A stretch of DNA of 64,000 nt, taken from assembly GCA_037439325.1 (NCBI GenBank), contig JBBIWD010000003.1, forward strand, positions 106,270 through 170,269, given 5' to 3'. Of the stretch, positions 58,359 through 58,449 are shown piece by piece. Each line of letters starts with the position of its first letter. Within the stretch, counting starts at the first letter, position 1. A program made the translations under genes and the position numbers. Under the pieces are notes generated by a model. It ran no database searches and was not told where the DNA came from. It was given only the letters and a program-made list of their open reading frames with translations. The DNA is from Rickettsiella sp. GTDB taxonomy: Bacteria; Pseudomonadota; Gammaproteobacteria; Diplorickettsiales; Diplorickettsiaceae.

Positions 58359-58410
58359 AGCGCCGATTTGAGCTGCAGCTTGCTGGCGCTATATTAAGTT
58401 TAGCTAAAGC
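58359..58410 (+). ncRNA. SAM-II riboswitch aptamer
   Basis: AGCGCC-GATTTG...GCTTGC-T-GGCGCT...GCTAAA; P1 pairing AGCGCC/GGCGCT; upstream of metE. Confidence 0.85.
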
Positions 58411-58416
58411 GTTATG

Positions 58417-58449
58417 AAACCACCATAGCTTTAGCCAGGTGGTTTTTTT
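58417..58449 (+). terminator. Intrinsic terminator in the riboswitch leader
   Basis: AAACCACC...GGTGGTTTTTTT immediately after the aptamer. Confidence 0.8.

What the first reader, a model, noticed from the sequence alone, without database searches (positions are those of the whole stretch)
58359..58449. SAM-II riboswitch apparently wired to transcription termination
Seen: the aptamer 3' strand GCTAAAGC (58403-58410) is exactly complementary to GCTTTAGC (58428-58435) inside the following terminator hairpin, and the metE ATG is about 250 nt further on. Established: SAM-II usually acts by sequestering the SD. Inference: SAM binding holds GCTAAA in the pseudoknot so the terminator forms; without SAM the 8-bp antiterminator forms.
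Basis: partly seen in the sequence, partly recalled or inferred. Interest (0 to 1): 0.65.

Follow-up and report, generated by a model that had tools for sequence, protein, structure and literature searches.

The report
SAM-II riboswitch attenuating metE transcription
This is a genuine but ordinary SAM-sensing RNA switch (class SAM-II) that most likely stops transcription of the methionine genes metE-metF when S-adenosylmethionine is plentiful, a wiring predicted for this class since 2005.

Summary
GCTAAAGC (58403-58410) is the reverse complement of GCTTTAGC (58428-58435). The second copy lies in the 13-nt loop of a terminator hairpin (stem 58417-24/58438-45, T7 58443-49), 253 nt before the metE ATG.

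The aptamer scores only 20.9 bits on Rfam SAM-II (cut-off 36). I still file it as SAM-II for four reasons: BLAST-level relatives in other families pass the cut-off; a model built from 65 aptamers outside the genus scores it 63.7 bits as the only real hit in the genome; P1 covaries; and it occurs in every genus genome with intact metE.

The loop complement is conserved across families. It forms in folds of the nascent RNA and is about as stable as the terminator. So the proposed switch between SAM-held pseudoknot and antiterminator is well supported by comparison, but untested experimentally.

Published surveys say SAM-II is most often associated with terminators, and about 30% of sampled genomes in this class carry the aptamer, many with the same tail complement.

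Novelty is low: a new member of a known kind. One side finding: the spacer holds a conserved 35-codon Cys-rich small ORF.

The parts
58316..58344 (+). Promoter-like site: TTGAAT, 17-nt spacer, TATAAT. The predicted transcription start is about 58351, a few nt before P1.
   Evidence: 10 of 12 consensus matches. The -10 element is conserved in the genus alignment. This placement is typical for SAM-II according to Corbino 2005. The start site is inferred, not mapped.
58356..58411 (+). SAM-II aptamer. P1 is 58359-58364 with 58385-58390. L1 is GAUUUG at 58365-58370. The P2 5' strand is GCUUGC at 58378-58383. The P2 3' strand (tail) is GCUAAAGC at 58403-58410.
   Evidence: Rfam RF00521 gives 20.9 bits, E=0.019, full-length alignment. 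Custom model R1 gives 63.7 bits, E about 1e-13. P1 covaries: 4 of 6 pairs change on both sides. The P2 register is inferred from the compensatory mutants in Corbino 2005.
58403..58410 (+). Switching strand GCUAAAGC. It is the 3' strand of pseudoknot P2 when SAM is bound, or the 5' strand of the antiterminator when SAM is absent.
58428..58435 (+). GCUUUAGC, the antiterminator 3' strand, located inside the terminator loop.
   Evidence: Exact complement. Pair probabilities are 0.97-1.0 in nascent RNA ending at 58437. The core pairs form in 17-20 of 20 leaders from several families.
58416..58449 (+). Intrinsic terminator: stem (G)AAACCACC / GGUGGUUU(U), 13-nt loop, U7 tract.
   Evidence: about -11 to -12 kcal/mol. 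The same stem is kept in other families, with G-U and compensatory changes.
58494..58601 (+). Conserved small ORF of 35 aa, MDDYCCCFKDFISIQHASQVLLLFCLLIAPNIVLF. It is the first coding sequence after the terminator.
   Evidence: An intact 30-35-codon ORF is present in 14 of 16 genus leaders. Diversity by codon position is 0.095/0.076/0.283, against 0.087/0.056/0.329 for metE. It is restricted to the genus and always lies in this leader.
58589..58646 (+). Degenerate remnant of 'hairpin 2'. Sister species have AGCCUGUUUUAAUG...CAUUAAAACAGGCU followed by UUUUAAU.
   Evidence: The hairpin is strong in 13 of 16 genus leaders but has no strong fold in the window. A spurious CRISPR-DR65 hit falls here.
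58703..61054 (+). metE, cobalamin-independent methionine synthase.
   Evidence: Pfam Meth_synt_1 and Meth_synt_2, E=1e-126 and 1e-155.
61032..61874 (+). metF, methylenetetrahydrofolate reductase. The probable ATG at 61032 overlaps the end of metE by 23 nt.
   Evidence: Pfam MTHFR, E=2e-85. Start codon scan.

Best explanation
A SAM-II riboswitch sits at the 5' end of a small-ORF-metE-metF transcript and acts as an OFF switch by transcription attenuation.

With SAM bound, the tail GCUAAAGC (58403-58410) is held in pseudoknot P2 with GCUUGC (58378-58383). The downstream hairpin 58416-58446 plus its U7 tract then forms, and RNA polymerase terminates at about 58449.

Without SAM, the free tail pairs with GCUUUAGC (58428-58435). 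This strand is transcribed just before the terminator 3' arm. The resulting 8-bp helix encloses the terminator 5' arm in its 17-nt loop and ends 2 nt before the 3' arm. The terminator therefore cannot close, and transcription reads through into the small ORF, metE and metF.

Shown here: aptamer homology, P1 covariation, conservation of the terminator and of the loop complement, and predicted folding of nascent RNA. Inferred: SAM binding, the P2 register, steric exclusion, and the regulatory outcome.
For: Aptamer.
- Rfam SAM_alpha gives a full-length alignment with E=0.019.
- BLAST relatives in other families pass the gathering score: L025 44.2 bits, L020 40.8 bits. Aptamers with the same core motif, retrieved by my pattern scan, also pass: L082 45.2 and 36.1, L106 37.1, L041 36.9, L042 38.2.
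- Model R1, built from 65 sequences outside the genus, scores the site 63.7 bits. It is the only real hit in the 1.56-Mb genome.
- P1 is 97.5% paired, and 4 of 6 pairs change on both sides.
- A promoter-like site lies just before P1.
- The leader is present in all 15 sister genomes with intact metE and in none of the 4 genus genomes without metE.

Expression platform.
- The terminator is predicted in all 16 genus leaders, and the same stem is kept in other families.
- The eight core antiterminator pairs form in 17-20 of 20 leaders. The flanking pair covaries: UA 9, CG 4, UG 2.
- A wobble-tolerant complement occurs in 23 of 35 leaders from other families and in 0 of 35 upstream controls.
- Stabilities are matched: antiterminator -10.3 kcal/mol, terminator -10.9 kcal/mol.
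- RNA ending at 58437 or 58442 folds into the antiterminator with pair probabilities of 0.97-1.0. Blocking the tail yields the terminator.
- At least 6 of 8 tail nucleotides pair with the complement in 17 of 20 homologous nascent RNAs.

Literature. Terminators are the commonly predicted SAM-II platform.
Against: - The Rfam score (20.9 bits) is below the curated cut-off of 36.
- P2 and the tail are invariant. The core of the antiterminator therefore cannot show covariation. The case rests on conservation of a loop sequence and on one covarying flank pair.
- One sister species (L011, GCTTTCGT) and one other family (L017) have a weakened complement.
- The antiterminator and terminator share no nucleotides, so their mutual exclusion is a steric inference.
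- Only 17 nt separate the tail from its complement, so the time window for SAM binding is short.
- At full length the terminator fold is slightly more stable, so the switch must be under kinetic control.
Confidence: 0.8

Rival explanations
1. The aptamer is real, but the terminator is largely constitutive. The locus would mainly produce a riboswitch-containing sRNA of about 100 nt, like RA1/RZ of S. meliloti. The small ORF and metE would be transcribed from a separate promoter in the spacer, or only by leaky read-through.
For: S. meliloti metA has a SAM-II aptamer followed by a terminator for which no riboswitch-driven antiterminator could be predicted, and the sRNA outnumbers the mRNA. The 253-nt spacer is unusually long compared with 20-60 nt in other families. 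The full-length MFE favours the terminator.
Against: The complement of the tail is conserved inside a terminator loop across families, which a constitutive terminator would not require. No promoter-like site was found between 58450 and 58702 (weak evidence). The leader strictly co-occurs with metE.
Confidence: 0.1
2. The element is a decayed or non-functional relic, or a look-alike that does not bind SAM. This would explain why it fails the Rfam gathering score.
For: 20.9 bits against a cut-off of 36. The genome is small and other genes in it are reported as decaying (earlier notes, unchecked).
Against: The aptamer and terminator are the most conserved part of the leader: mean pairwise difference 0.033, against 0.08 for the flanking spacer. 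All core motifs are intact. Rfam also scored below the cut-off all 13 of 19 loci in which I had found the same aptamer core motif, including a Nitrosospira locus.
Confidence: 0.04
3. SAM binding acts mainly on translation or through Rho, for example via the small ORF, rather than through the intrinsic terminator.
For: The best-studied SAM-II (metX) is translational. A translated small ORF lies 45 nt after the terminator.
Against: The tail ends about 70 nt before the small ORF's AAGAG Shine-Dalgarno-like sequence and 290 nt before that of metE. P2 therefore cannot occlude either. A canonical hairpin plus U7 follows the aptamer directly.
Confidence: 0.05

Closest known systems
SAM-II (metA motif, Rfam RF00521) riboswitches with intrinsic-terminator platforms in alpha-, beta- and gamma-proteobacteria (Corbino 2005; Barrick & Breaker 2007); S. 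meliloti metZ / sRNA RZ (Scheuer 2022)
   Same: Same aptamer core: P1, GAUUUG, CAGCUUGC, GCUAAAG tail. A promoter lies just before P1. It sits upstream of a methionine gene, a terminator follows P2 directly, and the logic is OFF. In my sample of the same class, many leaders carry GCUUUAGC or GCUUUGGC at the junction of the terminator 5' arm and loop.
   Different: In this subgroup (stem AAACCACC/GGUGGUUU) the complement lies entirely in the loop: 3 nt after the 5' arm and 2 nt before the 3' arm. In the common CCUGCUUUAGC layout it overlaps the 5' arm by 2-5 nt. The Rfam score is below the cut-off. The spacer to metE is 253 nt and contains a small ORF.
metX SAM-II riboswitch from the Sargasso Sea metagenome (PDB 2QWY)
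   Same: H-type pseudoknot in which SAM binding captures the 3' tail in P2.
   Different: There the tail carries the Shine-Dalgarno sequence and control is translational. Here the tail carries no SD and instead competes with a terminator-loop complement.
Guanidine-IV (mepA) riboswitch
   Same: Termination is controlled by base pairing to the terminal loop of the terminator hairpin rather than to its stem (PMC10907184).
   Different: The ligand and aptamer are different. There the ligand promotes the loop pairing (ON switch). Here the loop pairing forms without ligand and the ligand prevents it (OFF switch). This is a resemblance in how it works, not family membership.
SAM-I (S-box) leaders of metE and other met genes in Firmicutes
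   Same: SAM-dependent choice between terminator and antiterminator upstream of methionine genes.
   Different: The aptamer fold is unrelated (four-way junction). No SAM-I hit was found here.

Membership tests
SAM-II riboswitch (Rfam RF00521, SAM_alpha) | Reaches Rfam's curated gathering score (36 bits) | tested here: not met
   20.9 bits, E=0.019, with a full-length 1-79 alignment. This is an operational cut-off, not a structural feature. In one search, 13 of 19 loci in which I had found the same aptamer core motif also scored below it, while 6 loci passed (L020, L025, L041, L042, L082, L106).
SAM-II riboswitch (Rfam RF00521, SAM_alpha) | Sequence and structure homology to accepted members | tested here: met
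   BLAST with the window's leader finds L025 (44.2 bits on Rfam) and L020 (40.8 bits). Model R1, built from 65 aptamers outside the genus including gathering-score passers, scores the window 63.7 bits, E about 1e-13. Caveat: the training set was collected using a motif derived from this aptamer.
SAM-II riboswitch (Rfam RF00521, SAM_alpha) | P1 stem supported by covariation | tested here: met
   6 bp, 97.5% of cells paired, 4 of 6 pairs with changes on both sides, 0 of 500 shuffles as high. Slid controls give 33-52% paired.
SAM-II riboswitch (Rfam RF00521, SAM_alpha) | H-type pseudoknot P2 between the 3' part of the P1 loop and the 3' tail | tested here: inconclusive
   GCUU/AAGC plus GC/GC can pair in 20 of 20 sequences, but all six pairs are invariant, so there is no covariation signal. 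The register is taken from the compensatory mutants of Corbino 2005.
SAM-II riboswitch (Rfam RF00521, SAM_alpha) | Conserved core nucleotides (GAUUUG in L1, CAGCUUGC, GCUAAAG tail) | tested here: met
   All are present at 58365-70, 58376-83 and 58403-09.
SAM-II riboswitch (Rfam RF00521, SAM_alpha) | Location in the 5' leader of methionine/SAM genes, with a promoter just upstream of P1 | tested here: met
   metE-metF lie downstream. A promoter-like site is at 58316-58344. The leader co-occurs with intact metE in 16 of 16 genomes of the genus, counting the window's own.
SAM-II riboswitch (Rfam RF00521, SAM_alpha) | Binds SAM and discriminates against SAH | not testable with these tools
   Needs in-line probing or ITC.
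Transcription-attenuating (terminator/antiterminator) riboswitch | Intrinsic terminator directly after the aptamer | tested here: met
   An 8-9 bp G+C-containing stem plus U7, -10.9 to -12.4 kcal/mol, conserved in genus and class relatives.
Transcription-attenuating (terminator/antiterminator) riboswitch | Alternative pairing of an aptamer strand that excludes the terminator | tested here: met
   An 8-bp tail-to-loop helix dominates nascent-RNA folds. It is conserved. Exclusion follows from topology: a 2-nt linker cannot span an 8-bp helix. That step is an inference from pseudoknot stereochemistry.
Transcription-attenuating (terminator/antiterminator) riboswitch | Ligand-dependent termination | not testable with these tools
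In vitro transcription is needed.

The most novel reading that the evidence does not exclude
The leader may be a two-tier control region. The SAM-II attenuator is followed by a translated, genus-specific, Cys-rich 30-35-codon ORF. In sister species its stop codon lies at or inside the 5' arm of a second, terminator-like hairpin (AGCCUGUUUUAAUG...CAUUAAAACAGGCU followed by UUUUAAU). Translation of the small ORF would then gate a second termination step before metE-metF. This could couple methionine synthesis to translation or to cysteine/sulfur supply. The window's own species has lost the strong hairpin.

A smaller point: the antiterminator works purely by pairing with the terminator loop, with no shared nucleotides.
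Probability: 0.15. Interest if true: 0.55.

Novelty: new member of a known kind. Interest (0 to 1): 0.25.

Why it matters
For annotation, this genus carries a functional-looking SAM-II riboswitch that Rfam's cut-off misses. metE-metF and a small unannotated ORF are therefore probably SAM-regulated in a reduced 1.56-Mb genome that has only this one SAM-II copy.

For riboswitch biology, it adds a clear example of the SAM-II terminator platform. The same tail complement recurs in many leaders from other families. This could help build expression-platform models and improve the sensitivity of RF00521 outside the alpha-proteobacteria.

It does not change what is known about SAM-II.

Tried and rejected
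- Rfam at gathering threshold on the whole window: nothing.
- RF00521 on the whole genome through the genome search: only chance hits of 15 bits or less, and it even missed the 20.9-bit site. I therefore used a custom model instead.
- Second R1 hit in the genome (23.3 bits, G000:C3:2053-2090): rejected. The stretch reads as an open frame (...FYEEHQIPVQFVGHP...), so I judged it protein-coding. The lpxB-like identity is recalled from memory and was not searched.
- CRISPR-DR65, Phe_leader, PyrR and ncr1575 hits in the leader (E 0.7-6): rejected as chance matches to hairpins.
- Exact look-up of the MetE protein to name the organism: not on record. Megablast of unnamed loci against named loci only showed gammaproteobacterial neighbours. 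Earlier notes hinting at a Legionellales-like lifestyle were not checked.
- Literature search linking SAM-II to Coxiella, Legionella or Rickettsiella: nothing relevant.
- Strict 8-mer complement in the mixed alpha/beta/gamma pattern hits: only 8 of 82. The exact GCUUUAGC layout was frequent only in the sample of this class (23 of 35) and rare in this mixed sample. It is not universal for SAM-II.
- The 4-bp inner extension of the antiterminator seen in the window's fold (58413-16 with 58424-27) is not conserved in sister species. I do not count it as part of the mechanism.

Full report
**1. Observation**

The sequence shows GCTAAAGC at 58403-58410 and its exact reverse complement GCTTTAGC at 58428-58435. 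The second copy lies in the 13-nt loop (58425-58437) of a hairpin. The stem is AAACCACC (58417-58424) paired with GGTGGTTT (58438-58445), and it runs into a T7 tract (58443-58449).

The next long ORF, 58703-61054, is metE (Pfam Meth_synt_1 and Meth_synt_2). It is followed by metF, whose probable start at 61032 overlaps the end of metE. One detail needs adding: the complement lies in the terminator loop and shares no base with the stem.

The 8-mer is rare. There are 7 copies in 128 kb of both strands, against 3.1 expected. One copy falling 18 nt after its complement has a chance of about 1e-3 in a single sequence. The comparative data below put it far beyond chance.

**2. Is it a SAM-II aptamer?**

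Rfam gives no hit at gathering thresholds. A permissive scan of the leader gives SAM_alpha (RF00521) at 58350-58427, 20.9 bits against a cut-off of 36, E=0.019. The alignment is full length and all upper-case consensus blocks are present.

I do not treat the cut-off as decisive, for four reasons.

(a) BLAST with the leader finds the same element in 15 of 20 sister genomes and in other families of the class. Two of those (L025 at 44.2 bits, L020 at 40.8 bits) pass Rfam's cut-off. So do L082, L106, L041 and L042, which share the same core motif. Thirteen other loci with the same core score below it. The model is therefore insensitive for these sequences.

(b) A pattern for the core (GATTTGA...CAGNTTGC...GCTAAAGC) hits more than 120 species genomes of alpha-, beta- and gamma-proteobacteria. 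These are the known range of SAM-II.

(c) Covariance model R1, built from 65 such aptamers with none from this genus, scores the window's site 63.7 bits (E about 1e-13 in the window, 3e-12 in the genome). It is the only real hit in the 1.56-Mb genome. The runner-up at 23 bits lies in a stretch that reads as an open frame, so I judged it protein-coding. The training set was gathered with a motif taken from this aptamer, so this test is not fully independent.

(d) On an alignment of 20 leaders from several families, P1 (58359-64 with 58385-90) is 97.5% paired. Four of its six pairs change on both sides, and no shuffle out of 500 reaches this.

The pseudoknot P2 can form in every sequence: GCUU 58378-81 with AAGC 58407-10, plus GC 58382-83 with GC 58403-04. 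The register follows the compensatory mutants of Corbino 2005. P2 is invariant, so it neither adds nor subtracts evidence.

A promoter-like TTGAAT-17-TATAAT ends 14 nt before P1, as described for the family. Within the family-level sample, the leader is present in every genome with an intact metE: the window's genome and 15 sisters. It is absent from the four genus genomes without metE. Other genera of the family have neither. One genome has a metE pseudogene and no leader was found there.

**3. Expression platform**

Stabilities are matched: the terminator is -10.9 kcal/mol and the 8-bp tail-to-loop helix is -10.3 kcal/mol. RNA ending at 58437 or 58442, before the terminator 3' arm is available, folds into the tail-to-loop helix with pair probabilities of 0.97-1.0. 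Full-length RNA, or RNA whose tail and P2 partner are blocked to mimic SAM binding, folds into the terminator.

If both helices formed together they would make an H-type pseudoknot with linkers of 6, 3 and 2 nt. From established pseudoknot stereochemistry, a 2-nt linker cannot cross the groove of an 8-bp helix. The two helices are therefore mutually exclusive without sharing nucleotides. This step is inference.

The comparative support is as follows.
- The terminator stem recurs in other families, with G-U and compensatory changes such as CCACU/AGUGG.
- The eight core antiterminator pairs form in 17-20 of 20 leaders. The pair flanking the core covaries: UA 9, CG 4, UG 2.
- At least 6 of 8 tail bases pair with the downstream complement in nascent-RNA folds of 17 of 20 leaders.
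- A wobble-tolerant complement, G[CU]UUU[AG]G[CU], occurs within 55 nt in 23 of 35 distinct leaders from other families. It occurs in none of the matched upstream controls. By my own tally of the listings, 13 of the 17 loci whose BLAST match covered only the aptamer have it. The signal is therefore not produced by the query.

There are exceptions. L011 (GCUUUCGU) and L017 have weakened complements.

**4. How it compares with other SAM-II leaders**

A BLAST search with the 101-nt leader (aptamer plus terminator) matched 120 of 400 sampled genomes of the class; most matches covered the aptamer part only.

The usual layout there is ...CCUGCUUUAGC...GCGGGUUUUUUU. The complement starts with the last 2-5 nt of the terminator 5' arm and continues into the loop. 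In one search, the best tail complement straddles the 5' arm and loop in most leaders that have a terminator.

The window belongs to a subgroup with stem AAACCACC/GGUGGUUU (genus, L017, L018, L082, L159-L164, L168). In these the complement lies wholly inside the loop. This is a difference of degree.

A known mechanistic analogue that pairs with a terminator's terminal loop is guanidine-IV, which has the opposite ligand logic.

**5. Literature**

[quoted passage not shown] They list it in gamma-proteobacteria as well.
- Scheuer et al. 2022 studied S. meliloti metZ and metA, with riboswitch sRNAs produced by termination.

The SD-sequestering picture comes from the single metX RNA used for structural work.

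**6. The 253-nt spacer**

This stretch is specific to the genus. In other families the regulated gene starts 20-60 nt after the terminator.

The spacer contains a small ORF at 58494-58601, MDDYCCCFKDFISIQHASQVLLLFCLLIAPNIVLF. It is preceded by AAGAG at a distance of 9 nt. An intact 30-35-codon ORF is present in 14 of 16 genus leaders, despite indels. Diversity by codon position is 0.095/0.076/0.283, nearly the same as at the start of metE (0.087/0.056/0.329). It is therefore under coding selection. It occurs once per genome, always in this leader, and was not found outside the genus.

In 13 of 16 species its stop codon lies at or inside the 5' arm of a strong hairpin followed by UUUUAAU. The distal stem of that hairpin covaries. 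In the window itself this hairpin has degenerated. Whether this forms a second, translation-coupled checkpoint is speculation.

**7. Verdict**

This is a genuine SAM-II riboswitch. It very probably acts as an OFF switch by transcription attenuation through competition between the tail and the terminator-loop complement (confidence 0.8). The mechanism is supported by comparison and folding only.

It is a new, probably unannotated member of a well-known kind. The interest is low, with a modest side finding in the conserved small ORF.

Noticed in passing
window 58494-58601: Conserved 35-codon small ORF (MDDYCC...LLLF...) between the riboswitch terminator and metE. Its codon-position diversity looks like that of a real coding sequence. 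It is specific to the genus and always lies in this leader. Its function is unknown.
   Followed up: partly
window 58589-58646; L008, L002, L003 and others at the equivalent place: A second long hairpin (AGCCUGUUUUAAUG...CAUUAAAACAGGCU followed by UUUUAAU) overlaps the small ORF's stop codon in 13 of 16 genus leaders, and its distal stem covaries. It is degenerate in the window's own species and in L015 and L016. It could be a second terminator coupled to translation of the small ORF.
   Followed up: partly
L082 2812-3012 (-); L175 around 1509 and 1602 (-); also L069, L055, L102, L067: Tandem SAM-II aptamers. A second aptamer-like copy starts right after the first one's terminator in several gamma/beta-proteobacterial leaders. 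In L082 both copies pass the Rfam cut-off.
   Followed up: no
L109 3905-3987 (-): An SAH riboswitch (RF01057, 54 bits) lies about 1.3 kb from a SAM-II aptamer in a Thioalkalispiraceae MAG contig.
   Followed up: no
window 61032-61054: The probable metF start (ATG 61032, preceded by GGAAGGA) overlaps the end of metE by 23 nt. This suggests translational coupling.
   Followed up: partly
G016:C41:2182-4128; G003, G006, G011, G020: Within the genus, metE is a pseudogene in one genome (5 in-frame stops, N-terminal part missing). It is absent from four others, which also lack the riboswitch leader. No other genus of the family has metE or the leader.
   Followed up: partly
L011 (G014:C104) leader: In one sister species the loop complement is mutated (GCTTTCGT) while the aptamer and terminator are intact. 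That leader may terminate constitutively or regulate more weakly.
   Followed up: no
G000 whole genome: Technical point: the genome-wide search with RF00521 did not return the 20.9-bit site that cmscan finds in the window. The first-look filter can miss sub-threshold riboswitch hits.
   Followed up: yes
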